From Nemertoderma westbladi (lineage: Eukaryota > Animalia > Xenacoelomorpha), in assembly GCA_032718475.1 (NCBI GenBank), contig JAUCBJ010002310.1, forward strand, positions 1 through 56,343: a stretch of DNA of 56,343 nucleotides, given 5' to 3'. Both the position numbers and the translations under genes were made by a program. Below, in pieces: positions 21,961 to 56,343 of the stretch (its first letter is position 1; each line of letters starts with the position of its first letter). Under the pieces are notes generated by a model. That model was not told the origin of the DNA and searched no databases. It saw only the letters and a program-made list of their open reading frames with translations.

Positions 21961-21966
21961 TAGGAA

Positions 21967-24229
21967 TTAGGCTCTACGGCAGATGTCTTCGGCTAGTTCT
22001 TTGTCGATGAATGTACCTGTGCTGCCAGAGTCAAGGAGGGCGTTCACTATTAAACTTTTCCCTAGCCTGTGGACTCTCAGCTGCACTACAGGGAATTCCT
22101 GGATTCCGACGTTGGAAGTCGGCGCTTTCCAAGATGGTTGCCAGTCTGGAATAGTCAGTTGCGCTTCATTATCAGTGTCAGTCTCATACGTAAGCGCTCG
22201 ATACACCGCAGTGTTTATCATATAACAGGATTCGTTTTCGTCGGAAATTTCGTCCGTGTAAAATCCTTCCATCTCAGAGCTGTGGTCAGTGTCGTTCACA
22301 TCACTGAATTGGACATGTAGTTTGGGCTCACTTACCTGACTCGTGCAGGTTCTGTAAAATTCTGTATGCAGCAAGATATGATGTTTCGCGCCGCACTTAG
22401 CACACCTGGCATATGAGTAACAGGTCCGCCGTTGGTGTCCTCGTCTGAGGCAATTATAACACAACCGCTTATCCCACATGACATCACGTCTATCCTTTAG
22501 GGATTTCTTCAAGAATCCATCACATCCACTTAAACGATGGGGCCCGTCGCACAATGCACATTTGGGTTTGATGTTACTTACTTTAACTTGTGTGGTGTTG
22601 TGCACACTTGTTCTTTCCTCGGGCTTTCTTCCATGAATTATCTTAGGAGACGTAGGAGGAGTTTTTGTTACCTGTTCTCTCCTGTCACTGGTTCGAGACT
22701 TAGATTTACTTTACGTCTTTCGGTGTTTTGTTGACATAGTAAGATCTTTTGGTGTCTTTCCCGCTGTTCTCCTCGTGGGAGGTTTGGCTTTCGCCGTCGT
22801 CTGTATAACACACTGGTGTTACCTTTCTCCTAGAAATGGGTTTTTCACTCACCTTATTTTCCGGTGTCTTCTCTCGGGACTGCTTTAGGAGCTGTAATCT
22901 TACCTCTCCATTTAAGAATGATATGAGATCAGCCATGGTAGGGTCTCTTTGTTGCTGGTCCATCATATAGAGCACTCTTTTGTCCTAACGCGTACCTACT
23001 CCACCCTTTGGCAAAGTAGATGCCACGGCTCCAACAACCATGGAACTCTGATATTCATGAGACTTACCTAACCAATCTAACTGTCTACAGATCTCCTGGA
23101 TCTCATCGGAAAATTCTATAATCCCGCTGCTAAGAAACTTTCGGGGCGCTACTAATTTTGCATACAAATACCTAGCTATGTTAGTCCTATTACCGTACCT
23201 GATGTTTAGTGTATCGCAAACTTGTCTTAATCCATCTGGATGTCCAATAAACTTTAACGCCATTAACTTGGGAGGTCCTTCCAAGCACTCGATGAGGAAT
23301 CTTAGTTTCTCTCCGTGGGATAGTATGGAACCCTGTATGTTATCTTTATAATATTCATTAAAAGGTAACCATTTCATCTCATCTCCTTTGAACTTGACGA
23401 TCTTTCCCACCTTTACCACTTGACGGGCTTCGGTTCTAGCCATTTTGACGCGTAAAACTTTCTTGGGCCATCGTATTATTTAATATCGAGTTATCGGTAT
23501 ATAAATTTCTCGGATTAGGATCAGGTCTATATGGAATATCATTATTATTACTCCCTCACTATTAGGGTGAAGTCCAGCTAGCCGTCTCCTTAACTCTTTG
23601 TCACCTATAAATCATTGATAGTCCGACAGAGAGATGTCAATAACGTCCTTCTTCTGAGGTTTCTCTGATGTAACGTCGCTTTCCACCTGAGAAAAGGTAG
23701 TGTCTGTTGATTCTCTGTGGGTCGCGCGCTCAGTTAGCTGAATTTTCCATTGGGTTGTTCCTTGGACTTTAAGACTCACCCGTTGGAACCAAGTCTTTAC
23801 GGCGACTTGCAACGACGTGTCTTGGCTTCTATTCGAGGCTTCCTCAAAGGCTGAAAGGATTAGTCTGATCCGTAAAATTCGTTCTCGCACTTGATAAACC
23901 TCTTCTGCCATCCTTGCTCCGATTTCGGGTGTCAACTCTACAGTGTCTGAACTGCTAGAGTTATCGGGCCGCTGAGAAATAAATTCTCGGTTCGGGTGTT
24001 GCTGCTGTTTAACAGCAGCCTCTTGGTCCCTCTTGACTTGAGCCCGAGTGCCTATGATAGACCTACGGTGCTTGACTAGCCTAGGGTCTGATACTACTAC
24101 TGGAGGGATGACCTTTCTTACAGTAGGAGGGGACTTGGACTTTGGTCTCAGATGTTCTGCACTACTATCTGAGTCGCAGACTGTTCTTTCTAGGAGACTA
24201 TCTGACAGTGTTTGTTTTGTGTCAGCCAT
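21967..24229 (-). pseudogene. BEL gag (three Cys/His knuckles) and aspartic protease, fragmented
   Basis: CALCDGPHRLSGC, CYNCLRRGHQRRTC, CAKCGAKHHILLH; protease LLDSGSTGTFI; KFKGD..W..F...KLRFL gag segment; several frameshifts. Confidence 0.88.
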
Positions 24230-24365
24230 GTTTGATTATACAGTTGAATGTCTACTACTATAACGACAGTTAAAGCAAGTCTAGTAATTCAGTATCCACT
24301 GTAAGCCTAGTAATTAATTACCGATACCGTTACTCAGTGTAACATGATATATATACAATATATTA

Positions 24366-26117: not shown

Positions 26118-27306
26118 TGTTCGCGCTTTCAGACCTTTAGCAGTTTAACCTGCCAATTTTAGGTGTCCTCTTGTTTATAAATCGACTTTAGCCTATAACA
26201 AGTATTTAGTGCACATAAAGTTACATTAGCCGAAGCCAGTCTATGCGCGATCATTCACCCACTGTTAAGGGAGACTGGATTCGGATGCTTTGAAATGATT
26301 GCGGTGCAGACCTACTGTATTATTCGATTGATCATTACTATATAATCTCTGACAATATTATTCACTTTCGGGGAAATATTAACAGTTCCTTCCTAACCTT
26401 CCTAACGTTGCACCTTAAGTATATAAAACAGAGTTATGACTTATACTAAACACAACGAGATGGCCACTGAGTTTCGTAAATAGCGCATTCTTTAGGAGAT
26501 GTTTTATTATCTGTCACACTACTGTACACGACTTCACACTGATCTGCTGACCGTCACTGAATTTGATCATATATAAGGTGGATAGCAACTGACACATGTA
26601 GGGATTATGAAATAGCATTTAATTCACACAAAAACCACTATAATGTAAGTCGCAATTGCTACAGGTAACTGGTCCCTCTTACCTTCAGTAATCAAGAAGA
26701 TTGGGGTTTTATGATTATTTATCGGTATTCTCCAAATATATCAACAATATATCCATATAACAACAATTAATAACAGAAGTAAAATAATGCGGTGAAAGTC
26801 AGTATGTCGGTAGGTGATCGGTAGTACCGCAGTGCAGTTTGCATTGATATGTGGATTGCAGTGCTCCAGGTGTTATTCAGTTGGTGGCCAGATAATAGAT
26901 TTACGTTCCTATGTTTGGCCTAATGTTTGGTCAAAGTCTGAAACTTCAACAGAAGCACAGAAGAATTTCTAAGCCGATGTTCTGAGGCTCAGAAAGGTAA
27001 ACAAGACCGTAATGCATTGCGCGGTTTTCCGTAGGCCTCTGTACAAGACAAAATGAAAATCGCTCTGATTGGCTGAGCAGAACAAAGAGAGGTTCCACGT
27101 TTACAGTAAATCAGCTGACAGATTTCGTCATCTGAGTTCCAGTCTTTTAGAGTATTAGGCGCATTGCGGCAGAAAATGGCTTGTTATGTCCGCTAAAGCA
27201 CCTACACGGTACATTGCGGAGAAATTGGCTTGTTATGTCCGCTAAAAGCACCTACACGGTATATTGCGGAGAAAAATGACTTGTTATGTCCGCAAAAGCT
27301 TTTACA
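26118..27306 (-). repeat. BEL 5' LTR (1189 bp)
   Basis: TGTTCGCG...TTTTACA, followed by TSD CAATG. Confidence 0.93.
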
Positions 27307-28561: not shown

Positions 28562-29375
28562 TTTCACAGAATTTATTTACTTGTAACCACACAAATTTGA
28601 AATCAAAATAATTTATTTAAACAAAAGATTGGGGAAGTCGAATATGCAAAATTCTGAATAAATGAAGAAATGAAAAAAAATTCGAAATTTTGAAATAAAC
28701 CCTATCTGAATCTTTCCCACAATTTTGCACAAGAATATTTCATACCCTAGCTAGGCACACTGACAGTAATAAATTGTGTAATATTACACAATATCGAACA
28801 CCAGCAAATTGTATACCAAGGGTTCCGAGGTATATGAACTATTTCCCATATTCCTTATTTCCCTTCAATTTATTTCAAGCTTTATTTCAATGTACCTAAT
28901 TATATTAAATAAGATAATAATTATTATATTATTATTATGTATTTGCAATTTCAGCGAGACTTTCCTGTTAACAAAATTACAAGATTTCCTCAAAAAGTAG
29001 CAGACTAAAGTGAGTGGGTATTGTATATATAGGCCTAAAGGAACATACTGTTCTGCGGCAAAAATACTACAGTAAGACACGTGGAGTGTGTTGGACAGAC
29101 CAACTGTACGTATGTTGGGTAGGTAGGTAGATACTCTGCTGTATATACGAAAGACTGAGTCTACAGTATAAGTGTGTTGAACGAACTATATAACTGAATG
29201 TGCAGTATAAACTGTTGGAAACGTTATCGGGTGGCAGGTGTCTGAGTTATTTAATAATCGTAAATTATTATCCGAGGCTGAAATCTCGGCGCAATTCTAT
29301 GTTGCAACAAACTTGAGTGTAACGACATTAGAACACTTACCGATACTGTATATTGGTATATACATTACAGTATTA

Positions 29376-31461
29376 ATCTGGCACGATGTTTGGAATGCTG
29401 CTGGTAGTCCCACCGGCAGTAGTAGTTATCTTTTTCACATGCGACGTACGAGCCGCGCACAGTATCAGTACGCAGTTCGTAGGCTTAAAAGGTCACAGGA
29501 CTCGATTAATATTTTTAATGAAATTAAACAATTTAGAGGTAACCAGCGTTTCCAATCAAATTCTATTAATGGTGTAACTAATCCTACTGAAATTTCAAAT
29601 ATTTTTGCAAATATTTATTCGACTTTATATAATCAAGAATATATTGTGGATATTTCTATTGGTGATATCGAAAATAAATTACTAGACACATTGCGCAATC
29701 TGAATGATAATAATGATTTTAGCACTAATTATAGCAACTGTGCAGGTTTTCGTGAAATGTTATCACCTCGTATTTTACACGAAGCCTTGTTAGGATTAAA
29801 AAATAACAAGTCCGATGTGAGTTACAGTTTTGATTCAGGCGCTTTAATTCACGGTGGTATTTTACTTGAGCAACATTTGTCAACTTTATTTAATGCTTTT
29901 CTATCACACGGTATTGTTTCTAAATGTCTACTGTACATTTCCTTTATTCCGATTGTAAAAAGTAAATTGGGTGACCTATCGGCAGACAGTAATTATAGAG
30001 CGTTAGCTATATCGTCGCTAATCTTAAAGGTATTTGAATGGGTAATGATAATTAGTTAAGGTGATAAGTTGAAGTTTGATGATTTACAATTCGGTTTTCG
30101 TACTAATTCTAGTACGGTTATGTGCACATGGTCTGCGTCTGAAGTAATTAATTATTATCTGAAGCACTTGACTCCTGTTTATGGCTGCCTTTTAGATTTT
30201 ACTAAACCTTTTGACCTTATCGAATGGCCTAAACTATTTCTAGAATTACTGAAAAAAGGTTTTTCTGTTCTCTATTTAAGGTGTCTTATTTTTATTTACC
30301 GTAATCAGTTCTGTGCAGTGAAATGGTTAGGGTGTCTCTCATCACAATTTTTGATTTCAAACGGCGTCCGACAAGGGTCTGTTTGGTCGCCAATACACTT
30401 CTGTATTGTTTTGAATATACTTATTAAATCCTTACGTAATTGTAAAGTAGGATGTTATATTGGTAGCCAGTATTTTGGGGTGTTAGCCTACGCTGATGAT
30501 GTGCTTTTGCTTTGCCCTTCTGTGATAGGTTTACAATATATGATAGACATTTGTAAAAAATTTTGTAGTGCATTTAATTTACGTCTGAGTACCAATGCTG
30601 ATGCACCTAAATGTAAGTGCAAATGCATCCCTTTTGGTTTTTCATGGAATCCCCCACAGCGGAAACTTTTTATTAATAATATTTTGCTGCCTTGGGTAAA
30701 AGATGCAATTCATCTAGGAATTACTCTAGATTTCAAGTGCACTCTAAATGTCGATATTCTACGTAAAAGAGGTCAGTTTGTTGGAAAGCTGCATAATATC
30801 AGACAAGAATTCGGTTTTGCACATCCAAGTAATGTTACGAAATTACAGAAATTATATGCTATGTCGTTCTACGGTAGCTGTACTTGGAAACTTTGGTCAG
30901 ACGAATGTCGTCGAATTTTAACTAGTTGGAATACGAATGTACGAATTTTATGTCGCCTTCCTTTTAACGCGCACAGATTTATTGTTCAGGATGTTGTCTG
31001 TTTTTTGCACCCTTGGGTGATACTCTGTAAAAATTTTGTATCTTTTTGTAACTCAATTTGTAAATCAGATAGGCTTTGCGTCAGATTTCTTGTGAATTTA
31101 TTTACTACTGATTGTGGAAGTATCAGCGGTAATAATCTTAGATGTATTGCGAATGATTGTAGGGTAGTAGATATTAAGGAATTGACAACATCTGTAGTAG
31201 TGAATAAATTAAAGTATGTTCATACACCTGCAGGAGAAAATTGGAAAATTGAAACCTGCAGGGATTTAATAGATTCGTTAGTTGGATATTCGGAAATACC
31301 CGGTTTTTCAAGTTCGGAAATTAAGCATTTATTAGACTTAATTTCTTCGTCGTAGTTGATTTCTCGTCTGTGTATGCATTATGTGTATCTATGTACGTAC
31401 CACTGTATTAATTTGTGCTAAAGTGTACCATATAATTGTAACTATGTTTACGAATAAAATA

Positions 31462-34231: not shown

Positions 34232-35359
34232 TTCAGTTAGAACACAAAATTTTTAATTCACTTAAACGATGCTATAAATTCACATTTTCAGGTTTTCTAG
34301 GTCGCTGATTGTAATGGAATACATTTCAAATATGCCAGATCATTGCTACTTGTATTTCTCGGCGTAATTTGGCAAATTTTGGTGCTGGCACCAAATTTTG
34401 TACCCATCACTAAAAAGTACAAGTTTGTGATGTCCAGTGCTGTTTTTATTGATTCCTTCGGATTCAGGACCATCATAAACCCGTATAACGCAAGAAACAA
34501 GATGATACTATCTATTGATCAATTTACTCATTTTCCAAAATTTGGTGCTGGCACAACAATTTTCACCCACCGGCGAAAAATACAAGTTTGAAAACTCTTA
34601 TGAAATTTTTACTGATTCAATTGAATTCTGAACCCTAACAAACCCGTATAACGCAAGAAACAAGATGACACAATCAATTGATATATTTGATGGTTTTCAA
34701 AATTTGGTGCTAGAACCACATTTTGCACCCACTTCAGAAAAATACAAGTTTGAGATGTCTAGTTCGATAATTATATATTCCATTGAATGCAGAACAGCCA
34801 TAAACCTCTAAAATGCAAGAAATAAATTGTCACAAGCAATTTTATCTATTGAATGAATTTTCAAAATTTCGGACAAGTTTGATACGCTTGGTGCAAATCG
34901 TATATATTTCATCGAAACCAGAACCCCAAAAAACCCCAATTGCGTAAAAAACAAGTTTCAAACAATCAATTTACAAAATTGACATATTTAAAAATTTGGT
35001 GCTGGCACCAAAATTTGGCACCCGCCGAAAAAAACAATTTTGAAATTTCTAAATCAATTTATATGAATTCCATCCAATTGCTAACACCAAAAAACCGGTG
35101 TAAATCAAAAATAGAGATGTTATAATTAATATTTAATGAAATGTAATTTTCAAAAAAAAGTGCCAAAAGTAGGGTTAAAAAATGGTGCTATAACTCGAAA
35201 ACTACCCAATATTTTTGAAAACGGTTTTCACTACTAGGAAGACAAGAGATTTTTAGGAAAAGTCATAAAATTTCAGATTCCCAACTGCGTTTGTTTCAGG
35301 ATTATAATAGAAAAACCACGGGGGGGGGGGTCATATTGACCCCCCCGGGTTTAATAGGG
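34232..35359. mobile_element. Second, left-truncated copy of the element at 1-1456
   Basis: Colinear with 312-1456 apart from small indels; ends GGG|TTAA. Confidence 0.85.
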
Positions 35360-36640: not shown

Positions 36641-39600
36641 AACTGCATCCACTGGAGAACAGCGTTAAATTTAATGGATTGGAGTTTCACAGGCTTATGA
36701 TCGCCAGCCATTTGTTGTTGTTTTTTTGTTTAAACTGGAGAAGAGGATAACTCGTCAAAACCCACTGGAGGTACGTCATCAGTACCACAAGGATATTGAA
36801 GCTGCCAAACAAATGTCGAAGGACGACCCAACCAAGAAGGGCCAGGGTCAAAGTCATGGTCAGCAACTTAACAAAGAAGATGACGGTAGTGTCGCTTCTG
36901 GTAAGGGTGAATCAACATGGGGAATGATGGAGATGTTTAAACAAATGATATTGAATCAAGCCGAGTTGATGCAACAACAGACGACAGCAATGATGGATAG
37001 ACAATACCAATTTATGCAGGAACATTCTAGAGCGATGGCTACACAACAAAATTAGTTCTTCCAATTTAATGGAGAGTCATAAGGTGACTGAAGATAGTCG
37101 TTTTAGAGAACTTCAGGATATGCTATCGAATGAAAGAGACAATGCAAATGAACCAAATAGTGGTAGCCGTGACCATGGTGATGATAGTGGCCGGGGTAGT
37201 AGAGGAACAGGGGCTCACCAGATACATCGCTGCACGAAGTTATCAGAGACCATACCACCTTTCGACCCAAAGAAGATGTCTATTCAAACATGGTTTGATG
37301 ATTATTATGATCGAATTATGGATGACTCTAGCGTTCCACAGGATGAACGTAGGGATCGTTTACTGGCTAAAGTTGGTCGTTTACACACGATGTTAGAAGA
37401 AACATTAGAAGAGGATGACAGAAGTGATTATCTGTCATTGAAGAAAGTTGTTGATTTATTGATTTATTGATTTATTATCAGATCATAAGGAGAATACAGC
37501 TTCTAATATAGCAACATGTAAACAAGGGATCAATGAGTCTTTGCCGGAATTCGTAGAGCGATTCATGATGGCTGTCCGCCGTCGTAGGGAACAGTTTGAT
37601 GGGAATGGAGAAGAGTCTATACTACAGGATTTCTTTGCATCTAATGTTTGCTGTGAGTTGAGTGGAAGACTTCGAGGATGGCGACGATTGAATGTGCAAT
37701 CAACCTGGAAAGAGTTATTTCGAAAAGCTTATGCTTTTTTAGATATGGAGCTTTCAAATACAGTTGTCAAATCAATTGTTAACACAAATGAAGTGGAGAC
37801 AAATGCAATTAGGGGCAATTCTAAACCAATCTCAAGTAATTATTCTGACTCGAGTTCAACTAAACTGAAGATTACTTGTTTTAATTGTAGTAGAATTGGG
37901 CATATGGCCAAAGATTGTAGAAACCCAGTGAAGTGTTGTGGAAAATTGGGATACCGAAAGATGGACTGTTTTAAGGAAAAATTGAAGCATAGTAGCAAAT
38001 CTAATGATAATTGTCGTGAATCTACCTCCAAAGAAACTGGTTGTAGTTTAGTTCAAGTTGGCTTCGATAAATTAAATCTTAATTTACTCAAGGTGTGAAT
38101 GTAAATAAATGACATGGAGTTTGTGCTGCAACTGCAATTTCATATCCAGATTATCTGCAGCGTATTCCCATACAGGTAATGAATCTGAATGAATTTCCTA
38201 TAAGGATTAATAAACATACCAAGTTGGGGTCAGTTGAATGCCTATGTATTAAAAATACAGCTGATTATTCTGTTACAGAAGATGATGAAAATATAATGTC
38301 TATGCCAGTGGGAGAGAAGTCTCGTAAAACCTGGTCTAGAGGTGATTATATATCTCGATTACATATTGAGGATGATGAGTACAGTGATGAGTCAATGAAA
38401 GATAAATTAACTATGTTCTTTATAAACACCGCGATGTTTTTGCTCAACATGAGTTAGATTTGGGATTGACGAAAGGGGTGCAACATCACATAAATACGGG
38501 AGATGCTAGTCCAATTAAGGTTCAGGGACATAGGGTTCCAATGTCGCAGTGGCCTGTAGTTGAAGAACATGTAAAATCTAAGCTAGAGAAGGATGTCATA
38601 GAGCATTCAGAGAGTCCTTGGCAATTTCGTCCAGTCTTTGCCTTGATGAAAGGGGGTGAGCTGAGGTTCTGCATTGATTTTCGACCACTTAATGAAGTGA
38701 CGCTTAAAGATGCATATCCTTTGCCATCTATTCAAGAATTAATTGACTGTATTGGTCCACAACCTACAGACACAAAGGACTTTACTTGGGGAGAGGAGCA
38801 ACAAGCTGTGATGGACGATATCAAACAAGCTTTATCAAATGCACCATGCCTTGCACATACCGATTTTAATGCCGACTTTCTGTTACAAACTGATGCTTCT
38901 CGGAGTGGGTTGGGAGCTGTGTTAGCTCAAGTTAATGATAGTAGTCGTGTACAACATGTGGCTTATGCTTCTCGTACTCTACAGGGGAGTGAACATAATT
39001 ATTCTATAAGTGATATTGAATGTCTTGGAGTTGTGTGGGCAATTAAACATTTTCGACCTTACCTATATGGGAGAAAGTTTACAGTTTATACCGATCATTC
39101 TGCACTTACCAGTTTATTAACTGCCAAAGAGTTGGATGGTCGTTTAGCTTGATGGGCACTTTGGTTGAGTCAATTCAACTGTGAGATTCGATATAGACCT
39201 GGAATGCGGATGCAGATGCATTGAGTCGACTAGTCCCTTTGTGTTGTTTGGAGAAGGAATAATGGTAACTGTCCATTGGATAAAGTTGTGTCTTCAGTTG
39301 AGGCATCAGAGATTGTTATTGAAGATGAAGTTGATGTTCATTCATTCAAAGTAGATAGTAAAACAACGAAATGATAATAAACTCAAGTGTATAATCGATT
39401 ATTTAGAAGATGGTACTTTACCAATAAAATTGAAAGCAGCTAGAAGAATTGTTTTGGAGTCAACTAATTATGAACTTAGTAACGAGTTCTTTATTCTAGA
39501 TTTAAGTCTAAAGATAGTCATAAAATTCGACTGTTAACTGTAGTTCCAGAATCCTTACGAGGTGATATTTTACATGCATACCATGGTGATAACTCGTCTG

Positions 39601-43768: not shown

Positions 43769-45500
43769 CTAGCTATCGGAAAATTTGGTCATTGTCTTGA
43801 TTCATCTCAACATTGCAATTTTAAATGCCTCATAATTGCCCACGACTGGCGGATATAACTACAATCCACATGTGTTCACTCGTGGTAGACCCTCGTAATA
43901 CGATGTTTCATCTTTCGGGTGTATAAACTTTATTGTAGGCTGGATGTCGAAGCCGAGTAAAGGAACAGAACTTGCCCCCGTGGCAAAACTCAGTAATTGT
44001 GTAAGTCCAATTGGTTCTCCATTCTCCAGTCCAAGCTCTCCAGCTATTAATATATAAATAAATAAATACTTAAAATAATTGAAAATTAATAATCTAAACA
44101 AACTATTATAGGATTCTGTATAAATCGATTCTTCTGCTGCGTGCCTTTTTGACATTATGGGTTTATACTGTAGGGTAAAAAGGTGGGCTATATTTTAATT
44201 ATTATTAATAATTATTGTGCATTCTAAAAAAAACTATTTTATATAGTACATACACATACCACTTAGATCTTGTAGAAAGTCACGCCAATACACTATGAAT
44301 CGTCTTTCCTTTCTCTCACGGTTGCTTTGGTCATGTTGAGTCCATGTAATCTCAAACATACGGTCAACCATTTCTGCAGTAACATCGATATCTTCCCCCA
44401 ATATAAAGGTTTCCCTCCGTGCAGATTTGTTACCAGTTATCTCTTCGATTAGACCACACTGACCCAAGCCTTCTCGAAATCTTAATTATAAAATAAGTAT
44501 AATATTCGAAATTAAGTTTGGAACTTCGAGCAGCACGTGAACGACTAAGCTAGTTTGTATCTAGTTTGGGACTTAGAGCAGCACGTGAACAACTAGGTAA
44601 CTGGCTATTTAGTTTTGAACTTCGTGTAGAAATGAATCAATAGAAGTTGAAAATACAATGTTTTATTTATTTATTTATTTTATTTAAACTTTTGACTGAC
44701 AAACAGACAGATAAATAGACAGACCGTTAAGTTACCCTTTCGCTTGCACTGCCACACATTACACATTTACATGTAGAATGTAAATAGATACTGTTCAACA
44801 GCAGTGCGAATCAAATCAGTGACCAGAAACTTGCACAGTCCAGCTATGAGAGATCCTTTGGTTTTCATTGCTATGGAAAGAGTAAAACAACCCGCCAGAG
44901 TGATATTACTTCGCTTGCTGTTTCAACTGCCGAGCGAAAATCATCTTCTGTGGTGCAATTCTTGATCAGTTTTTGATGTAAAAACAAATATATTTGGTAA
45001 ATATATGAAATTAATCTATGAGTGCGAGAATATTAAATTACTAATTTAATATAAAATAAATTTAGCTGTATCTACAATTCAGCAATAATTACAGTAGGCC
45101 TACAGACTTACCATCATAATCAAGGTCTATCATTTTCCTAGTTTCTGGTCCGTAGAATAATGAAGAATCGCGAATTGCTACAGTGGCTTGGCGCATGACA
45201 TCCCGACTCGGTCCACCCTGGTCTATACCCTGTTCATCATCAAACTTAACATATATCTTGTGATCAACGTTAAACGTCCTGCGGTCAAAATTTCTATAAG
45301 CACCATCTAACACGTCATCGCGCACTACATTAATTTGATTGAATTTTCCAGCATCTTCATCGTCGTAAGTTTTGGTTAAACAGGTGAGAATCTCAAATAG
45401 GGTTTCTGGGCGTGATGGGTGACTTGCTGTATTGGGTGCCTGTGACGGAAACGGCGCTGATGGCATGTTATCAACGTAATCTGAGGTCAATGGATCCTGA
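43769..45500 (-). pseudogene. Spliced G2E3-like HECT E3 ubiquitin ligase pseudogene
   Basis: Exons ..45112 (VKFDDEQGIDQGGPSRD), ~44980-44792, 44480-44260 (FREGL..YWRDFLQD) and 44043-43769 (LSFATGASSVPLLGF..LPRVNTC). The last two introns are GT-AG and phase-compatible; stops in the last exon. Confidence 0.82.
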
Positions 45501-46161
45501 ACTGATTTTAGTACCGGTATTTCAATCATATCATTAAATATTCTGGTATCTTGTTGAGCATGAGCGACCATGAGCGGGATAGGGTTGTTACCGCAAGTAA
45601 GAAAAACCCAACCTTGGGACGTCACTCGATACAGCGATATGAAGATATGCGGTAGCGGTAATTTGAAGACCAACAATTTATTATCTACATTTTGATAACA
45701 CAAACAAAGGCGTTATGGAGGGAAACATCAAGAAAAAAACCGTTCATTCACATAGGAATGCAGGAGACACCTGCTACTCACAAACCAAGTCAAACAATAA
45801 AGGAACTTACCATTTCCACAGTCAGACAGTAAACAATTAATTATGGATCCGTTTGTTACCTGTAATTGGTAGTAGTTCGACCCGTCCTTTACTCAAATAG
45901 ATGAATAATTACCGGTCTGCCGGTAAGTGTATGCTGATACTGTAAGATTAGTGACTCTATGAGCTGACCGAAAATATCGCTACAGCCAGAAATCATAAAT
46001 CGGGGCAGAAATTACACCCATGAGCTGCGCTAAGTTTAGTAATTAGCGGACCTAGCTAAACTTTCGGGAACACAGAACAGATAAGGCTGTAAGGTGTCTG
46101 ACTGAATGTCGAAAAGAAAGTAAGCGTCAGCTTCCAGTCAGTAGGTATAATAATCTATCTA

Positions 46162-47557
46162 TCTAATATATATAAATATCGATTGTCTGTCTGTCTGTCT
46201 GTCTGTGTGTTTGTCATCGGCTATACAATCGAACCCATCTCGATGAAATCTCGCTTGCTATAGCTCGTTAGAAAGGTCTCGCTCTAACTCGTTGCAACGT
46301 AATACTCAGAGTCGTCTGAAGTTCGCCCGTCTGCCGCTAGAGGGCGATTTTCGTGATTTTCGGGCGAAATTTATCGAATTATTTCGGTTCTTCTATCGGT
46401 AATTAATTATTTAGAGGGCTAACATTTATCCCATCTGGTATAAAATTAACATGGGTAGATTCGCCGTGTCCCATTCTCACAAAGTTTTTATTTTATTCGA
46501 GTGTTTAATATAAATATGTATGATTATTTATTGATTAAAATCCAAATAGTGTATAAATATGTCATATTCGCCAAGCACGATCGAATTGGCCTATTCTTAG
46601 TGCTGTAGTGAATAGGGAAGGATTTTTTTCTGTATCATAGCAACGTTAAGGTAATTATTGAAATCGCAGCTAGCTGGGCACAGATAAGGAGCAAGCCAGG
46701 TTGTAGTGTTGATTGGGGTGGGTTTGGGTTGTCTGTTGCGAACTGCTCAAGTGTAATTCTGCTTTCTCAATCATTGGCTGCATGGAAGGAGAGGTTTATA
46801 ACATTTTTGTTTTACTGTTATGAATATTAAAAGTAAAATAATTATTTCTGTAGGCCTATACTTACTGTATTATTATTTTATCTAATATTATACATCTAAT
46901 CTCGATGAAATCTCGCTTACTATAGCTCGTTAGATAGGTCTCGCCCTAACTCGTTGCAACGTAATACTCAGAGCCGTCTGAAGTTCCCCCATCTGCCGCT
47001 AGAGGGCGAATTGTCCCAGCGTTGTATACAGTCCCCCCATCTGCCGCTAGAGGGCGACATATCTGATAGTGAACACCTCATCCCATTTGGTTCTTTTTAA
47101 TCCTATTGAGCTGGAACTTGGCAGGAATCTACTACAGCATATTCTGTATCATTACGGAGTCCCAGAGTCGTCTACAGTTCTTCAGTCTACCGCTAGAGGG
47201 TGAAATGTCTGAATGTGAACATCTACACCAATTTTGTTATTTACAATCTGTTTAAGCTGAAACTTGAAAGGCAGGCATTTTACTTCACCATAAACTCCAT
47301 CTTTACCAAACTGCAGCGCCGTCTGCATTTCACCAGTCCGCAGGTAGAGGGTGGATCTGAAAGTGATCATTTTCTGGAAATTTTGTTATTTACAATCTGC
47401 CTAAAGTTGAAACTTGACAGTTATATCTTATGGGGGTGGTGTTTTATTTAATGATGGTGTCTATTCCGTATGCAGTTCTCGAATCTCCCACACATATTCA
47501 TATATCATCTGCACGTGCACTAGAAAGCTGTGGCCCGAAGGGCCACAGGCTTTCTAG
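46162..47557 (+). mobile_element. Non-autonomous Helitron, type A copy 1
   Basis: 5' TC, (TCTG)n near the 5' end, 3' hairpin GTGGCCC-GAA-GGGCCAC followed by 11 nt ending in CTAG. Confidence 0.85.
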
Positions 47558-48949
47558 TCTAATATATATAAATATCGATTGTCTGTCTGTCTGTCTGTCT
47601 GTTTGTCATCGGCTATACAATCGAACCCATCTCGATGAAATCTCGCTTGCTATAGCTCGTTAGAAAGGTCTCGCTCTAACTCGTTGCAACGTAATACTCA
47701 GAGTCGTCTGAAGTTCACCCGTCTGCCGCTAGAGGGCGATTTTCGTGATTTTCGGGCGTAATTTATCGAATTATTTCGGTTCTTCTATCGGTAATTAATT
47801 ATTTAGAGGGCTAACATTTATCCCATCTGGTATAAAATTAACATGAGTAGATTCGCCGTGTCCCATTCTCACAAAGTTTTTATTTTATTCGAGTGTTTAA
47901 TATAAATATGTATGATTATTTATTGATTAAAATCCAAATAGTGTATAAATATGTCATATTCGCCAAGCACGATCGAATTGGCCTATTCTTAGTGCTGTAG
48001 TGAATAGGGAAGGATTTTTTTCTGTATCATAGCAACGTTAAGGTAATTATTGAAATCGCAGCTAGCTGGGCACAGATAAGGAGCAAGCCAGGTTGTAGTG
48101 TTGATTGGGGTGGGTTTGGGTTGTCTGTTGCGAACTGCTCAAGTGTAATTCTGCTTTCTCAATCATTGGCTGCATGGAAGGAGAGGTTTATAACATTTTT
48201 GTTTTACTGTTATGAATATTAAAAGTAAAATAATTATTTCTGTAGGCCTATACTTACTGTATTATTATTTTATCTAATATTATACATCTAATCTCGATGA
48301 AATCTCGCTTACTATAGCTCGTTAGATAGGTCTCGCCCTAACTCGTTGCAACGTAATACTCAGAGCCGTCTGAAGTTCCCCCATCTGCCGCTAGAGGGCG
48401 AATTGTCCCAGCGTTGTATACAGTCCCCCCATCTGCCGCTAGAGGGCGACATATCTGATAGTGAACACCTCATCCCATTTGGTTCTTTTTAATCCTATTG
48501 AGCTGGAACTTGGCAGGAATCTACTACAGCATATTCTGTATCATTACGGAGTCCCAGAGTCGTCTACAGTTCTTCAGTCTACCGCTAGAGGGTGAAATGT
48601 CTGAATGTGAACATCTACACCAATTTTGTTATTTACAATCTGTTTAAGCTGAAACTTGAAAGGCAGGCATTTTACTTCACCATAAACTCCATCTTTACCA
48701 AACTGCAGCGCCGTCTGCATTTCACCAGTCCGCAGGTAGAGGGTGGATCTGAAAGTGATCATTTTCTGGAAATTTTGTTATTTACAATCTGCCTAAAGTT
48801 GAAACTTGACAGTTATATCTTATGGGGGTGGTGTTTTATTTAATGATGGTGTCTATTCCGTATGCAGTTCTCGAATCTCCCACACATATTCATATATCAT
48901 CTGCACGTGCACTAGAAAGCTGTGGCCCGAAGGGCCACAGGCTTTCTAG
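47558..48949 (+). mobile_element. Non-autonomous Helitron, type A copy 2
   Basis: 1392-bp near-identical tandem copy; CTAG|TC junctions. Confidence 0.85.
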
Positions 48950-49774
48950 TCTAATATATATAAATATCGATTGTCTGTCTGTCTGTCTGTCTGTTTGTCA
49001 TCGGCTATACAATCGAACCCATCTCGATGAAATCTCGCTTGCTATAGCTCGTTAGAAAGGTCTCGCTCTAACTCGTTGCAACGTAATACTCAGAGTCGTC
49101 TGAAGTTCACCCGTCTGCCGCTAGAGGGCGATTTTCGTGATTTTCGGGCGTAATTTATCGAATTATTTCGGTTCTTCTATCGGTAATTAATTATTTAGAG
49201 GGCTAACATTTATCCCATCTGGTATAAAATTAACATGAGTAGATTCGCCGTGTCCCATTCTCACAAAGTTTTTATTTTATTCGAGTGTTTAATATAAATA
49301 TGTATGATTATTTATTGATTAAAAACCAAATAGTGTATAAATATGTCATATTCGCCAAGCACGATCGAATTGGCCTATTGGTATTGAATAGGGAAGGATT
49401 GTTTTCTGTATCATAGCAACGTTAAGGTAATTATTGAACTCGCAGCTAGCTGGCTGGGCACAGATAAGGAGCAAGCAGGCTGGAGTGTTGATTGGGGTGG
49501 GTTTGGGTTGTCTGTTGCGAATTGCTCAGAGTAATTCTGCTTTCTCAATCATTGGCTGCATGTAAAAGGAGAGGTTTATAACATTTTTGTTTTACTGTTA
49601 TGAATATTAAAAGTAAAATAATTATTTCTGTAGGCCTATACTTACTGTATTATTATTTTATCTAATATTATACATCTAATCTCGATGAAATCTCGCTTAC
49701 TATAGCTCGTTAGATAGGTCTTGCCCTAACTTGTTGCAACGTAATACTCAGAGCCGTCTGAAGTTCCACCGTCT

Positions 49775-51740
49775 GCCGCTAGAGGGCGAATTGTTCGATA
49801 CTGAAAACCTGATCTCATTGGGTTGTTTTTAATGCTTTTGAGCTGAAACTTGGTTGCTATATACTGCAGCAGCAGCATAGGCTGTATATTTCCGGAGTCA
49901 CTGAGTTGTCCACAGTTCCCCAGTCTACCGTTAGAGGGCTAAATGTCTGAGAGTTAACATCTTCTCCAACTTTGTTATTTACAATCCGTTTAGACTGAAA
50001 CTTGGTAGGCATCTACTACAGCAAAGGCTGTATCTTTACTGAGTCGCAGAGTCGTCTACAATTCCCCAGTCTACCGCTAGAGGGCGAAATGTCTGAAAGT
50101 TAACATCTTCTCCAACTTTGTTATTTACAATCCGTTTAGACTGAAACTTGGTAGGCATCTACTACAGCAAAGGCTGTATCTTTACTGAGTCGCAGAGTCG
50201 TCTACAATTCCCCAGTCTACCGCTAGAGGGCTAAATGTCTGAGAGATAACATCTTCTCCAACTTTGTTATTTACAATCCGTTTAGACTGAAACTTGGTAG
50301 GCATCTACTACAGCAAAGGCTGTATCTTTACTGAGTCGCAGAGTCGTCTACAATTCCCCAGTCTACCGCTAGAGGGCGAAATGTCTGAAAGTTAACATCT
50401 TCTCCAACTTTGTTATTTACAATCCGTTTAGACTGAAACTTGGTAGGCATCTACTACAGCAAAGGCTGTATCTTTACTGAGTCGCAGAGTCGTCTACAAT
50501 TCCCCAGTCTACCGTTAGAGGGCTAAATGTCTGAGAGTTAACATCTTCTCCAACTTTGTTATTTACAATCCGTTTAGACTGAAACTTGGTAGGCATCTAC
50601 TACAGCAAAGGCTGTATCTTTACTGAGTCGCAGAGTCGTCTACAATTCCCCAGTCTACCGCTAGAGGGCGAAATGTCTGAGAGTTAACATCTTCTCCAAC
50701 TTTGTAATTTACAATCCGTTTAGACTGAAACTTGGTAGGCATCTACTACAGCAAAGGCTGTATCTTTACTGAGTCACAGAGTCGTCTACAATTCCCCAGT
50801 CTACCGCTAGAGGGCTAAATGTCTGAGAGTTAACATCTTCTCCAACTTTGTTATTTACATTCCGTTTAGACTGAAACTTGGTAGGCATCTACTACAGCAA
50901 AGGCTGTATCTTTACTGATTCGCAGAGTCGTCTACAATTCCCCAGTCTACCGCTAGAGGGCGAAATGTCTGAAAGTTAACATCTCCTCCAACTTTGTTAT
51001 TTACAATCCTTTTAGACTGAAACTTGGTAGGCATCTACTATAGCATAGGCTATATCTTTGCGGAGTAGTAGAGTCATAGACAGTTCCACAGTCAGCCGCT
51101 AGAGGGCGAATTGTCTGATAGTGAAAACCTCATCCCATTTGGTTCTTTTTAATCATTTTGAGCTGAAACTTGGTTGGTATCTACTACATCATAGGCTGTA
51201 TCTTTACGGGGTTGCAGAATCCTATTCACTTCCCCAGTCTACCGCTAGAGGGTGAAATGTCTGAAAGTTAACATCTTCTCCAACTTGTTATTTACTAACG
51301 GTTTAGACTGAAACTTGGTAGGCTTCTACTACAGCATAGGCTGTACCTTTTCGGAGTCACAGAGTTCTAAGTGGTTAGCATAACTGAACGTTTTTCGGGA
51401 GACGCGGGTTCGATCCCCGCTGGTGGCAGTCCGTATCTGCCGCTAGAGGGCGAAATATCTGATAGTGAACACCTCATCCCATTTGGTTCTTTTTAATCCT
51501 ATTGAGCTGGAACTTGGCAGGAGTCTACTACAGCATATTCTGTATCTTTACGGAGTCCCAGAGTCGTCTACAGTTCTTCAGTCTACCGCTAGAGGGTGAA
51601 ATGTCTGAATGTGAACATCTACACCAATTTTGTTATTTACAATCTGTTTAAGCTGAAACTTGAAAGGCAGGCATTTTACTTCACCATAAACCCAATCTTT
51701 ACCAAACTGCAGCGCCGTCTGCATTTCACCAGTCCGCAGG
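49775..51740 (+). repeat. 146-bp tandem repeat array
   Basis: CCG(C/T)TAGAGGG at 49928, 50074, 50220, 50366, 50512, 50658, 50804, 50950, 51096 and 51242. Confidence 0.95.
51369..51428 (+). pseudogene. tRNA-derived fragment inserted in one repeat unit
   Basis: AGTGGTTAGCATAACTGAACG...GGTTCGATCCCCGCTGGTGGC; lengthens that unit from 146 to 198 bp. Confidence 0.7.
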
Positions 51741-51953
51741 TAGAGGGTGGATCTGAAAGTGATCATTTTCTGGAAATTTTGTTATTTACAATCTGCCTAA
51801 AGTTGAAACTTGACAGTTATCTCTTATGGGGGTGGTGTTTTATTTAATGATGGTGTCTGTTCCGTATGCAGTTCTCAAATCTCCCACACATATTCATATA
51901 TCATCTGCACGTGCACTAGAAAGCTGTGGCCCGAAGGGCCACAGGCTTTCTAG

Positions 51954-53830
51954 TCTATATATATAAATTTCATGTGTCTGTCTGTCTGTTTGTCTGTCCA
52001 AGCTATACGTTTCTACACACAAGCACCAATCGGAGCTCGCGATACATCGAATGAAAGCTCTCGTCTCGAGCACGTGCACTGTCGCTATCTCGAGTCTTAT
52101 TTTAAGTGTTTGTTTACGTGAATGCAAATTTCGTGAATTCGGTACCGGTAGTGCAGTAGGCCTAGCAGTTCATTCTGTCGCTCTACACGTTGTGTCTCGA
52201 CTATTATGCTACTTTTTCATGCGCATCTACGTGATGCAGACTGCCCCGAGCACATAGACGTGAAACGTCGTTATATCGAGGCAAATTTTATGCATCATTT
52301 ATGCGTGAATGCGTATTTGTGGTCAAATTGGGCTATTATTCAATAACAATTTTCAGCCAAATTTGTCAACCAGGAAACTCTATAAAAGCGGTTGCACCAA
52401 CAGACTCAATCTGTTCTAAATGATACTTTGCAGATACGTTCCTGACCATAGAATGTGTGTTTGGGAAGACACTGATCAATCGGCAGTTCTCCAGTCTGCC
52501 ACTAGGGGGCGAAATGTCAGAAAGTGAAAACCTTCTCCCATCTCGTTATTATTAATGCCTTTTAGCTGATACGTGGCAGAGGTCTATTACACCATAGGCT
52601 GTGTGTTTTCGGAGGATGCTGACCAATCTGCAATTCCCCAGTCTGCCGCTAGGTGGAGAAATATCTGAAAGTGAAAACCTTATCCCATTTCGTTGTTTAT
52701 AATGCTTTTTTGCTGATACTTGGCAGAAGTCGACTACACCATAGACTGCGTGTTTGTAGAGAACTCTGAATAATCTGAAATTCCTCTGTCTGCCGGTAGG
52801 GGGCGCAATGTCTGAAAGTGAAAACCTTCACCCATTTTGATGTTTATAATGTTTTTAGGCTGATACTTGTCAGAGGTCTACTACATCAAAGACTGCGTGT
52901 TTGTGGAGAAGTAAGACCAATCTGCAACAGCTCTGTCTCCCGCTAGGGGGCGAAATGTCTGAAAGTAAAAACCTTTATGCATTTCATTGTTTATAATGCT
53001 TTTTTTCTGATACTTGGCAGAGGTCTACTACACCATAGACTGTGTGTTTGGGGAGGAGCTAGAACCAGTCTGCATTTATCCAGTCTACCGCTAGGGGGCC
53101 AAATGTCTGAAAGTGAAAACCTTATCCCATTTCGTTATTAATATGATTTCAGGCTGACACTTGCCAGATGTGTAGTACACCATAGGGTGTATGTCTAGGT
53201 AAGACACCAAACAAACTGCAGTTCTCCATTCGGCCGCTAGGGGGCGAAATCTCTGAAAGTGAAAACCTTATCCCGTTTCGTTGTTTCTAATGCTTTTAGG
53301 CTGATACTTGTCAGAGGTCTACTACACCATAGACTGCGTGTTTGTGGAAAACTCTGACCAATCTGCAATTTCTCAGTCTGCCGCTAGAGGGTGAAATGTC
53401 TCAAGTGAAATCCTTCTCCAATTTCATTGTTTCTAATGCTTTTTTGCTTATACTTGGGAAAGGCATGTTTGACCATAGGCTGTTTGTATGGGGAGGACGC
53501 TAACCAGTCTGCGGATTTCCAGTCTACTGCTGCTAGGGTGCGAAAAATCTGAATCTGAAAAGTAAAAACATTCTCACATTTATTTATTAAAAATGCTTTT
53601 ACGCTGATAATTGTCAGAGGTCTACTGTACTACATCATAAGGCTGCATCTATGTGAAGGACGTTGACCAGTGTAGATATCTGAAAAGTAAAACAGCATCA
53701 GTCCTTTAGTTTGAGAGAACACTCTCAATCATATGAAGTTTTGTTACGTTAATTAATTAATTAATGTTTGGAATGGTGAATAGGCTTGTGAACTAGAAAG
53801 CCGTGGCCCGAAGGGCCACTGGCTTTCTAG
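51954..53830 (+). mobile_element. Non-autonomous Helitron, type B copy 1 (147-bp diverged repeats)
   Basis: 5' TC, (TCTG)n, same 3' hairpin and CTAG; motif anchors at 52499, 52646, 52793, 52940, 53088, 53234 and 53381. Confidence 0.85.
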
Positions 53831-53832
53831 TA

Positions 53833-56343
53833 TCTATATATATAAATATCATGTGTCTGTCTGTCTGTCTGTCTGTTTGTTTGTTTGTCTGTCCAAGCTA
53901 TACGTTTCTACACACAAGCACCAATCTGAGCTCGCGATACATCGAACGAAAGCTCTCGTCACGAGCACGTGCACTGTCGCTATCTCGAGTCTTATTTTAC
54001 GCGTTTGTTTGCGTGAATGCAGATTTCGTGAATTTGGTACCGGTAGCGCAGTAGGCCTAGCAGTTCATTCTGTCACTCTACATGTTGGGTCTCGACTATT
54101 ATGCTACTTTTTGATGCGCATCTACGTGATGCAGACTGCCCTGAGCACATGGACGCGAAACGTCGTTATATCGAGGCGAATTTTATGCATCATTTATGTG
54201 TGAATGGTTATTTGTGGTCAAATTGGGCTATTATTCCATAACAATTTTCAGCCAAATTTGTCAACCAGCAGGGAACTCTATAACAGCGGTTGCACCAACA
54301 GACTCAATCTGTTCTAAATGATACTTTGCAGATACGTTCCTGACCATAGACTGTGTGTTTGGGAAGACACTGATCAATCTGCAGTTATCCAGTCTGTCGC
54401 TAGGGGGCGAAATGTCAGAAAATGAAAACCTTCTCCCATTTCGTTATTATTAATGCCTTTTAGCTTATACGTGGCAGAGGTCTACTATACCATAGGCTGT
54501 GTGTTTTGGAGGATGCTGACTAATCTGCAATTCCCCAGTCTGCCGCTAGGGGGCGAAATATCTGAAAGTGAAAACCTTATCCCATTTCGTTGTTTATAAT
54601 GCTTTTTTGCTGATACTTGGCAGAAGTCGACTACACCATAGACTGCGTGTTTGTAGAGAACTCTGAATAATCTGAAATTCCTCTGTCTGCCGGTAGGGGG
54701 CGCAATGTCTGAAAGTGAAAACCTTCACCCATTTCGTTGTTTATACTGCTTTTTTGCTGATACTTGGCAGAGGTCTACTACACCAAGACTGCCTGTTTGG
54801 GGAGGAGCTAAAACCAGTCTGCATTTCTCCAGTCTACCGCTAGGGGGCCACATGTCTGAAAGTGAAAACCTTATCCCATTTCGTTATTAATAATACTTTT
54901 AGGCTGACACATGGCAGATGTGTATTACACCATAGGGTGTGTGTCTGGAGAGGACGCCGAACAACCTGCAGTTCTCTATTCGGCCGCTGGGGGGCGAAAT
55001 GTCTGAACGTGAAAACCTTATCCCATTTTGATGTTTATAATGTTTTTAGGCTGATACTTGTCGGAGGTCTACTACATCAAAGACTGCGTGTTTGTGGAGA
55101 ACTAAGACCAACCTGCAGTTCTCTATTCGGCCGCTAGGGGGCGAAATGTCTGAACGTGAAAACCCTCTCACATTTCGATGTTTATAATGTTTTTAGGCTG
55201 ATACTTGGCAGAGGTCTACTACATCATAGACTGCGTGTTTGTGGAGGAGCTAGAACCAGTCTGCATTTCTCCAGTCTACTGCTAGGGGGCCCAATGTCTG
55301 AAAGTGAAAACCTTATCCCATTTCGTTATTAATAATGCTCTTAGGCTGACACTTGGCAGATGTGTATTACACCATAGGGTGTGTGTCTGGAATCCCATTT
55401 CGTTATTAATAATGCTTTTAGGCTGACACTTGGCAGATGTGTATTACACCATAGGGTGTTTGTCTGGAGAGGACGCCGAACAACCTGCAGTTCTCTATTC
55501 AGCCGCTAGGGGGCGAAATGTCTGAACGTGAAAACCTTATCCCATTTCGATGTTTATTATTCTTTTAAGCTGATACTTGTCAGAGGTCTACTACATCAAA
55601 GACTGCGTGTTTGTGGAGAACTAAGACCAATCTGCAATTTCTCAGTCTGTCGCTAGAGGGTGGAATCTCTCAAGTGAAATCCTTCTCCCATTTCGTTGTT
55701 TCTAATGCTTTTTTGCTTTTACTTGAGAAATGTATACTTGGCCATAGGTTGTGTGTTTGGGGAGGACGATAACCAGTGTGCAGTTCTCCAATCTACTGCC
55801 AGGGTGCGAAATGTTTGAAAAGTGCAAACATTCTCACATTGATTTATTAAAAATGCTTTTAGGCTGGTAATTGTCGGAGGTCTACTGTACTATGTACATC
55901 ATACGGCTACATCTTTGTGAAGGACGTTGACCAGTCCGCAGTTCTCCAGTCCGCCACTAGGGGACGAATTGTCTGAAAGTGAAATCCTCCCATTTTGATT
56001 CTTGGCAGCGATCTAAAAGTACCTACTAAACTAAATAAACTATACAGTAGGTTGTGTTTACGAGGATGGTAATGACCTGCAGTTCTACAGTTTAACCTTC
56101 TTCCATATTTTTACAATTTGTAATCCTTTGGAAGTGATATTTGGCACGTATCTACTACAACCTGAGCCTTATACAGTATGTTGTAAAGTAGTATGTAGTG
56201 TAGATCTGAAAAGTAAAAGAGTATCAGTCCTTTTGTTTGAGAGAACACTCAATCATATGACGTTTTGTTATGTTAAGTTAAGTGAATTAATTAATTCATG
56301 TTTGGAATGGTGAACTAGAAAGCCGTGGCCCGAAGGGCCACTG
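53833..56343 (+). mobile_element. Non-autonomous Helitron, type B copy 2 (cut by the window end)
   Basis: Colinear with B1 but has more repeat units; the window ends just after the inner 3' hairpin, before the terminal CTAG. Confidence 0.85.

What the first reader, a model, noticed from the sequence alone, without database searches (positions are those of the whole stretch)
46162..56343. Helitrons carrying nucleosome-length repeats with one CTCF-like motif per unit
Seen: nearly every 146-bp (type A) or 147-bp (type B) unit contains CCGCTAG(A/G)GGGCG, giving several dozen same-orientation copies in 10 kb. By eye the motif is among the best-conserved parts of diverged units. Known: it closely matches the CTCF core consensus (CC.C.AG.GGGCG), CTCF site orientation matters for loop anchoring, and 146-147 bp is the nucleosome core length. 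Inference: a rolling-circle element that spreads oriented insulator or chromatin-architecture arrays.
Basis: partly seen in the sequence, partly recalled or inferred. Interest (0 to 1): 0.78.

Follow-up and report, generated by a model that had tools for sequence, protein, structure and literature searches.

The report
Helitron repeats carry two-part CTCF sites
Five jumping genes stacked end to end in an unnamed, likely invertebrate animal carry dozens of 146-147-base repeats, most with a two-part match to the docking site of the genome-organising protein CTCF, so these likely very abundant elements would spread CTCF docking sites in a lineage where the two-part form was not expected; binding and any boundary role are untested.

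Summary
Observation confirmed and extended. 46162-56343 holds five head-to-tail non-coding elements with canonical Helitron ends. They carry 44 same-strand CTCF-core-like sites, 39 of them in 146-147-bp units.

In 36 of 44, the CTCF upstream motif (at least 8/10 match to CTGCAGTTCC) sits exactly 8 bases before the core, the spacing of the human IL3 insulator; no other gap tested gives any. Across public contigs, similarity between diverged units starts at this motif's first base.

Against: a downstream block is as conserved as the core, the upstream motif is not better conserved within the window, all units share one ancestor, and host CTCF could not be checked. The 'oriented loop anchor' and 'nucleosome-length' readings lack support. 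Orientation follows from tandem copying, 140-180-bp units are ordinary in such elements, and the invertebrate CTCFs tested so far do not anchor oriented loops.

Best reading: a high-copy Helitron family that amplified a likely real two-part CTCF site with local effects. The scan has noted CTCF-motif repeats in shark and ray genomes before, but not this element.

The parts
46162..47557 (+). Element A1, non-autonomous Helitron-type (TC start after an A, TGTC microsatellite, 5 sites, hairpin-CTAG end)
47558..48949 (+). Element A2, differs from A1 by 3 substitutions and a 4-base microsatellite gap
48950..51953 (+). Element A3, with expanded 146-bp array (15 sites)
51954..53830 (+). Element B1, related ends, different 5' body, 147-bp array (8 sites)
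53833..56343 (+). Element B2 (11 sites), cut by the window end inside its 3' hairpin
46184..46215 (+). (TGTC)n microsatellite near the 5' end (present in all five elements; also 53854-53893)
47520..47557 (+). 3' hairpin ending in CTAG; inner 17-nt palindrome 47530-47546 ends 11 nt before the end (also 48912-48949, 51916-51953, 53793-53830, 56315-56343)
   Evidence: z -6.2 for the A form, -10.1 for the B form
49873..51365 (+). 146-bp tandem array, 10.2 copies
52445..53626 (+). 147-bp tandem array, 8.0 copies
54343..56000 (+). 147-bp tandem array of B2 (TRF to 55377; HMM units continue to about 56000)
54525..54555 (+). Example two-part CTCF-type site: upstream motif 54525-54534, 8-base gap, core 54543-54555
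   Evidence: spacing as in the IL3 oligo of PMC12885311
54524..54578 (+). Block shared across diverged family members in public contigs: two-part site plus about 22 bases downstream
   Evidence: depth profile, loose ends
46316..46346 (+). Stand-alone two-part site outside the array, at the end of a duplicated segment of about 115 bases (also cores at 46996, 47726, 48388, 49118)
51370..51427 (+). tRNA-like insertion that replaces the upstream motif of the unit with core 51440
55315..55468 (+). 77-bp internal duplication (half unit without a core)

Best explanation
These are five non-coding elements with canonical Helitron ends whose central 146-147-bp repeat carries a two-part CTCF-type motif that is likely a real CTCF docking site, likely spread genome-wide by rolling-circle transposition and likely acting locally rather than as an oriented loop anchor. 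Shown: element ends, repeat structure, core plus upstream motif at an 8-base gap, and a shared block in many contigs of public runs. Inferred: a RepHel transposase made elsewhere moves the elements; one ancestral site was copied into the array; CTCF fingers 3-7 would read the core and fingers 9-11 the upstream motif. A two-part site covers about 33 bases, leaving about 113 between neighbours, too little for a nucleosome, so a well-occupied array would be nucleosome-poor and open. The most likely beneficiary is the element itself (access for the transposase, shelter from silencing), as proposed for heat-shock-element arrays in Caenorhabditis Helitrons. Effects on host genes would be a by-product.
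For: Upstream motif at least 8/10 in 36 of 44 sites at gap 8 and in 0 of 44 at each of gaps 2-7 and 9-15; the gap equals that of the IL3 insulator oligo. Core within 1 mismatch plus upstream motif: 1 of 150,000 shuffles of one unit. The most variable core position is the one published as G/A (18 A, 15 G among 33 distinct sites). On one laid unit, summed contig depth rises 7- to 10-fold at the bin holding the motif's first base in three DNA runs and peaks on the core; loose ends pile up at 54524 (24, 35, 4 and 2 contigs); most depth reads G at 54530, the published letter (83-100%). Core changes per site 1.77 vs 3.19 in the rest. The two core CpGs are kept in about 30 and 27 of 33 distinct sites, although CpG columns in the B 5' body differ at 14 of 66 vs 1 of 46 GpC columns. 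Element depth is about a thousand times that of single flank contigs (not a copy number). All 14 named clusters among the 18 looked up for the neighbouring host gene are bilaterian.
Against: All units descend from one ancestor, so the spacing is one event, not 36. Within the window the upstream motif is no better conserved than the rest (rate 1.03 vs 1.02; 3.30 vs 3.19 changes per site; upstream plus core ranks 51 of 147 shifts). The downstream block (1.73) and the linker (2.38), which CTCF should not read, are conserved too. The depth profile is weighted by the abundant A subfamily, has edge effects, and also covers the downstream block. The bases after the core are AA where the published consensus has CC (though the IL3 site also has A at the first of these); a 3' C is reported as important for invertebrate CTCF. 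The upstream motif is reported absent in flies and possibly vertebrate-only. Host CTCF is unverified, and some bilaterian lineages have lost it. CpG decay suggests the elements are methylated at times, which would oppose binding (recalled). No binding or chromatin data.
Confidence: 0.55

Rival explanations
1. The motif is a true CTCF site by origin but a passenger now: captured once from host DNA, or brought in with a horizontally transferred element, then copied without being bound or selected.
For: Upstream motif not more conserved than the rest in the window; last units of each array decay; CpG decay in the B body; horizontal transfer of Helitrons among animals is reported (PMC2997563, search listing only); a run under another organism label holds units of the family.
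Against: Core changes about half as often as the rest despite two CpGs; similarity among diverged family members starts at the upstream motif; partial copies in the A elements keep the site and end at the core's 3' edge.
Confidence: 0.2
2. The 55-base block is kept for another reason (another zinc-finger or host factor, the transposase, or array recombination), and its likeness to CTCF sites is chance.
For: The conserved block includes the linker and about 22 bases downstream; oyster Helitron-related repeats also share conserved boxes of unknown role (PMC7492417); host CTCF unverified; many repeat families are screened in a scan like this.
Against: A second, unselected motif at the exact published gap is unlikely by chance (about 1e-4 to 2e-3); the block's 5' edge coincides with that motif's first base.
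Confidence: 0.15
3. One reading: the elements spread oriented insulators or loop anchors, with unit length tuned to the nucleosome core.
For: Two-part sites are the form linked to enhancer blocking in vertebrates (PMC12885311); Helitron minisatellites act as barriers in C. elegans by another route (bioRxiv 2026.08.08.743475); 147 bp is 14 helical turns, so sites would face one side (arithmetic).
Against: Orientation follows from tandem copying; no orientation rule in echinoderms, and invertebrate CTCFs did not build domains in mouse cells; fly CTCF does not phase nucleosomes by itself; unit length is ordinary; no 10-bp A/T periodicity (1808 and 926 of 2000 shuffles as strong).
Confidence: 0.1

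Closest known systems
Canonical non-autonomous Helitrons (definition in PMC4067079, passages)
   Same: 5' TC, 3' CTRR (CTAG), a 17-nt palindrome 11 nt from the end, A before and T after, no coding capacity.
   Different: The hairpin stem extends to include the terminal CTAG; central repeats carry a CTCF-type site; elements are stacked five deep.
Repeat-carrying HINE / DINE-1 / Pearl elements, e.g. oyster Cg_HINE (PMC7492417, passages)
   Same: 4-base microsatellite near the 5' end, central tandem units of 140-180 bp in fixed orientation, conserved boxes shared by diverged monomers.
   Different: HINEs are defined by subterminal inverted repeats and TT targets; these have TC/CTAG ends and an A-T junction. 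The passages read mention no CTCF site, and the search listing shows 0 occurrences of CTCF in that paper.
Caenorhabditis Helitrons carrying heat-shock elements (PMC6927752, passages)
   Same: Helitrons loaded with many repeated binding sites for one host factor; selfish origin proposed.
   Different: Different factor; binding was shown there by ChIP and is untested here.
Helitron minisatellite barriers (PATCs) of C. elegans (bioRxiv 10.64898/2026.08.08.743475, passages)
   Same: Internal Helitron repeats as a source of chromatin barriers.
   Different: There the unit is 35 bp, the barrier is mechanical (10-bp periodicity) and the host lacks CTCF; here the unit is 146-147 bp, has no such periodicity and carries a protein-binding motif.
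Transposon-spread CTCF sites in vertebrates, e.g. lamprey hAT-Tip100 #274 and mammalian retrotransposons (PMC5504073, passages)
   Same: A mobile element multiplies CTCF motifs genome-wide; two-part motif known in lamprey.
   Different: Those are hAT, LTR or SINE elements in vertebrates with ChIP support; here a rolling-circle element with tandem arrays in a likely non-vertebrate.
Two-part (core plus upstream) CTCF site, e.g. human IL3 insulator (PMC12885311, passages and section 10; PMC10484683, passages)
   Same: Upstream CTGCAGTTYY-type motif, 8-base gap, CCRCTAGRGGG core.
   Different: Described in vertebrates and said to be possibly restricted to them; here followed by a conserved AAATGTCTGAAAGTG block.

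Membership tests
Canonical non-autonomous Helitron | 5' TC terminus | tested here: met
   5 of 5 elements
Canonical non-autonomous Helitron | 3' CTRR terminus | tested here: met
   CTAG in 4 of 4 complete ends; the fifth is cut by the window
Canonical non-autonomous Helitron | 16-20-nt palindrome about 11 nt from the 3' end | tested here: met
   17-nt palindrome, 11 nt from the end; z -6.2 and -10.1
Canonical non-autonomous Helitron | Insertion between A and T without target duplication | tested here: inconclusive
   A precedes A1 and B2, T follows every complete end; one other copy ends CTAG then T in a different flank; no empty site was read
Canonical non-autonomous Helitron | Dispersed multi-copy family | tested here: met
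   1517 and 845 contigs laid on flank plus A1 in two runs, with element depth about a thousand times that of single flank contigs (indirect, not a copy number)
Canonical non-autonomous Helitron | Autonomous RepHel partner sharing the ends | not testable with these tools
HINE / Helentron (DINE-1 type) | Subterminal inverted repeats and TT target | tested here: inconclusive
   Ends read as TC/CTAG with A-T junctions; the inverted-repeat search was limited to 200 bases between arms, so end-to-end subTIRs of 11-13 bases were not excluded; self-BLAST showed no internal minus-strand hit
Two-part CTCF site | Core consensus match | tested here: met
   20 of 44 sites match a degenerate 13-base consensus fully, 35 within 1 mismatch; consensus built from PMC12885311 plus recall, no weight matrix available
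Two-part CTCF site | Upstream motif at the canonical distance | tested here: met
   36 of 44 at least 8/10 at gap 8, none at the 13 other gaps tested
Two-part CTCF site | Constraint confined to contact bases | tested here: not met
   Downstream block and linker are conserved too; upstream motif is average within the window
Two-part CTCF site | Host encodes CTCF with fingers 3-7 and 9-11 | not testable with these tools
   No genome; host unnamed; no statement on acoel CTCF in the passages read
Two-part CTCF site | Bound by CTCF in vivo or in vitro | not testable with these tools
   The 7 runs listed show no library type
Oriented loop anchor / insulator array | Orientation-dependent insulation or loops at the copies | not testable with these tools
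   No Hi-C; literature argues against it outside vertebrates
Nucleosome-positioning repeat | About 10-bp A/T dinucleotide periodicity and room for a linker | tested here: not met
   One A and one B unit: 1808 and 926 of 2000 shuffles as strong; period 146-147 leaves no linker

The most novel reading that the evidence does not exclude
A rolling-circle transposon family has seeded thousands of tandem, high-affinity two-part CTCF sites through the genome of an early-branching bilaterian (possibly an acoel), showing that reading of the upstream motif by fingers 9-11 predates vertebrates, and that a transposon uses arrays of bound CTCF as a portable shield against silencing which also rewires host chromatin boundaries.
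Probability: 0.25. Interest if true: 0.82.

Novelty: new variant of a known kind. Interest (0 to 1): 0.58.

Why it matters
The upstream half of the CTCF site is described for vertebrates, reported absent in flies and suggested to be vertebrate-only. A likely non-vertebrate repeat that keeps it at the exact distance makes the age of this binding mode testable with one gel shift or one CUT&Tag run. What CTCF does outside vertebrates is an open question. A family with many insertions, some likely polymorphic, gives a natural with/without experiment on insulation. It would also add Helitron central repeats, common in molluscs and insects and usually treated as featureless satellites, to the known carriers of CTCF sites.

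Tried and rejected
No whole genome is held, so no genome-wide scan and no search for host CTCF. The 3' hairpin pattern found 0 matches in metagenome contigs. Host placement: word-based protein searches with the sulfotransferase exon and the HECT-like exon found nothing significant; the LINE reverse transcriptase gave 48 hits with no organism names. The sulfotransferase's 150 best representatives are 26-43% identical, and it sits on a very long branch with no close relative, so the lineage was not fixed. No RNA holder was listed for the stretch; this is not evidence on expression. Empty-site hint only: three contigs run 275, 1291 and 131 bases beyond 46151, but the tool cut reads at the repeat there and did not show the letters. 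Single units do not fold better than shuffles (z -0.1 and +0.6), so a structured-RNA role was dropped. Rfam gave only weak chance-level hits: mir-557 on the hairpins and a tmRNA fragment on the insertion. ARAGORN found no tRNA. The other three long tandem repeats tested in the window have no CTCF-like core (best 4-5 mismatches). The 139-codon frame at 53784-54203 has no Pfam match. The variant table lists nothing after 54608 although differences exist there, so it was not used as a conservation measure. No earlier scan finding matched the unit or the region by sequence. The supplement of PMC11417384 was listed but not read. bioRxiv supplements are closed; the CTCF tree in 10.64898/2026.10.19.759930 may show whether acoels have CTCF. 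Figures, including motif logos, were not visible.
Full report
Anatomy. The region holds five head-to-tail elements: A1 46162-47557, A2 47558-48949, A3 48950-51953, B1 51954-53830 and B2 53833 to the window end. Each starts TC, has a TGTC microsatellite near the start, and ends in a hairpin whose last bases are CTAG (4 of 4 complete ends). The hairpin folds far better than shuffles (z -6.2 and -10.1), and its inner 17-nt palindrome ends 11 nt before the end. This is the canonical Helitron definition given in PMC4067079 (passages). The only frame of 100 codons or more in the region has no Pfam match, so the elements are non-autonomous. A precedes A1 and B2, and T follows each end. The inner junctions are G-T, which fits repeated insertion at the A-T formed by the flank and an older element's start, or tandem copying; A1 and A2 differ by 3 substitutions and a 4-base gap. 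A and B share their ends but not their 5' bodies.

The motif. CCGCTAGRGGGCG occurs 33 times within 1 mismatch, all on +, all in this region, against none in 100 shuffles. With 3 mismatches there are 44 sites, 39 in units and 5 in partial copies. Units average 74.5% identity within A, 74.8% within B and 63.8% between them; 24 of 39 intervals are 146 or 147 bases. The other 46,161 bases of the window hold one core within 1 mismatch and six within 2.

The missed second half. Vertebrate CTCF reads a core with fingers 3-7 and, at 13-15% of sites, an upstream CTGCAGTTCC-like motif with fingers 9-11 (PMC12885311, passages; PMC10484683, passages). In the IL3 insulator oligo printed there, 8 bases separate the upstream motif from the core. 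Here 36 of 44 sites match that motif at 8/10 or better at a gap of 8, and 0 of 44 at each of the 13 other gaps from 2 to 15. The units share one ancestor, so this is one event. Its chance given a core is about 2e-3 for 8/10 at any of six gaps and 1.5e-4 for 9/10, the level of the majority sequence. Core plus upstream motif arose in 1 of 150,000 shuffles of a unit. I had no weight matrix; the core consensus was built from the paper and from recall.

Conservation, for and against. On 26 units (27 left after removing copies over 95% alike, minus the one with the insertion) the core evolves more slowly than the rest: rate 0.80 vs 1.02, nominal p 0.0015 with columns treated as independent; 1.77 vs 3.19 changes per site. 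Its most variable position is the published G/A position (18 A, 15 G in 33 distinct sites from 42 of the 44). Against a CTCF-only reading, the block +13 to +34 is as conserved (1.73), the linker is fairly conserved (2.38), and the upstream motif is average (3.30; upstream plus core ranks 51 of 147 shifts). CpG columns in the B 5' body differ at 14 of 66 against 1 of 46 GpC columns, a hint of methylation; the A comparisons were too similar to show it (0 of 54, 1 of 24).

Beyond the window. Seven runs were listed, five holding part of the stretch. Four were laid on the flank plus A1: 1517, 845, 94 and 7 contigs. Summed depth in run X1 is 55,934-213,906 over the element against about 60 for single flank contigs, which points to a very abundant family, though the tool warns it is not a copy number. 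On one B unit, depth jumps from 22,590 to 165,858 in X1 at the bin holding the first base of the upstream motif (11,848 to 121,252 in X3; 130 to 1,139 in X4; 0 to 24 in X5), peaks on the core, and falls to about a fifth of the peak by 54603. Loose ends gather at 54524 in 24, 35, 4 and 2 contigs with mixed upstream letters, and at 54573-54578. Most depth reads G at 54530, giving TGCAG as published. So the part that diverged members share starts at the upstream motif and runs about 22 bases past the core. Caveats: abundant A-type units dominate the sum, the stretch's edges are under-covered, and the downstream block is included. Run X5 carries another organism label, with few contigs at low depth.

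Host. The window has animal features: sulfotransferase exons, a weak HECT hit, LINE, Pao and Gypsy-type frames. All 14 named clusters among 18 looked up for the sulfotransferase are bilaterians (amphioxus, echinoderms, hemichordates, nemerteans, a mollusc, a brachiopod, an ostracod), but only at 26-37% identity. Unchecked earlier notes call the host a fast-evolving animal, likely an acoel. CTCF is bilaterian-specific and lost in some lineages (PMC10658182; PMC8851819; PMC7535936, which did not sample xenacoelomorphs; passages). I found no statement on acoel CTCF in searches or in the passages read. Host CTCF is therefore open.

One orientation is automatic for tandem units and holds for all oyster HINE elements; their units are mostly 140-180 bp with one 146-bp cluster (PMC7492417, passages). 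No 10-bp A/T periodicity was found in the two units tested. Echinoderm boundaries show no CTCF orientation rule (PMC13317027, passages). Fly, urchin and sea-squirt CTCF bind but do not build domains in mouse cells (bioRxiv 10.64898/2026.10.19.759930, passages). Fly CTCF does not phase nucleosomes alone (bioRxiv 10.64898/2026.10.19.760054, passages). The oriented-anchor and nucleosome-length readings are thus unsupported.

Most likely mechanism. Inferred: a RepHel protein from elsewhere copies these elements; an ancestral two-part site was amplified into arrays; bound CTCF every 146-147 bases would leave about 113 bases between sites, too little for a nucleosome, giving an open patch that likely helps the element. 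A second factor may read the conserved downstream block. I put this at 0.55, a passenger site at 0.2, chance likeness at 0.15 and the oriented-insulator version at 0.1.

Novelty. Each ingredient has a precedent: Helitron-type elements with central repeats, Helitrons loaded with host-factor sites (PMC6927752, passages), Helitron repeats as barriers (bioRxiv 10.64898/2026.08.08.743475, passages), and transposons spreading CTCF sites in vertebrates (PMC5504073, passages). Searches listed no paper whose title or abstract start describes CTCF sites in Helitron central repeats; for some only the top 25 of 389 and 59 were shown, and the library lacks most subscription papers. The upstream motif is reported absent in flies and possibly vertebrate-only (PMC12885311 section 10, read whole). 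The combination is a new variant of a known kind; its interest rests on the two-part site in a likely non-vertebrate.

Noticed in passing
window 51370-51427 and 1813-1870 (minus strand): 58-base tRNA-like piece with a B-box-like GGTTCGATCCC, 93% identical at the two places; likely a SINE head; one copy interrupts a repeat unit.
   Followed up: partly
window 54556-54578 and the same place in other units: Conserved block AAATGTCTGAAAGTGAAAACC just after the core, as constrained as the core; GAAAGTGAAA resembles IRF/PRDM1-type sites (recalled, not tested).
   Followed up: partly
window 47520-47557 vs 53793-53830: A and B hairpins differ at two stem positions yet both keep a long stem with one bulge, shifted by one base.
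   Followed up: partly
window 43800-45712, minus strand: Exons of a HECT-domain-like gene (weak Pfam hit, E 2e-4) lie just left of the element stack; contig depth over 45585-46151 is several times that of neighbouring contigs, suggesting a multi-copy segment.
   Followed up: partly
window 44511-44622: 48-bp tandem repeat with very high contig depth (55,157 in run X1), another abundant repeat family.
   Followed up: no
window 453-1193 and 34373-34869: Two arrays of a related 161-163-bp repeat, without a CTCF-like core.
   Followed up: partly
window 3647-4312 and 5284-5799: Galactose-3-O-sulfotransferase exons, highly divergent from all database representatives.
   Followed up: partly
window 11118-14452, 18366-24235, 29211-31355, 37463-39152: LINE-type, Pao/BEL-type and Gypsy-type retrotransposon frames; a 49-50-bp repeat occurs at 14866-15002 and 27162-27299.
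   Followed up: no
window 53485-53633: Last unit of B1 has a 3-base insertion between upstream motif and core and a decayed core; terminal units of every array are the most degenerate.
   Followed up: no
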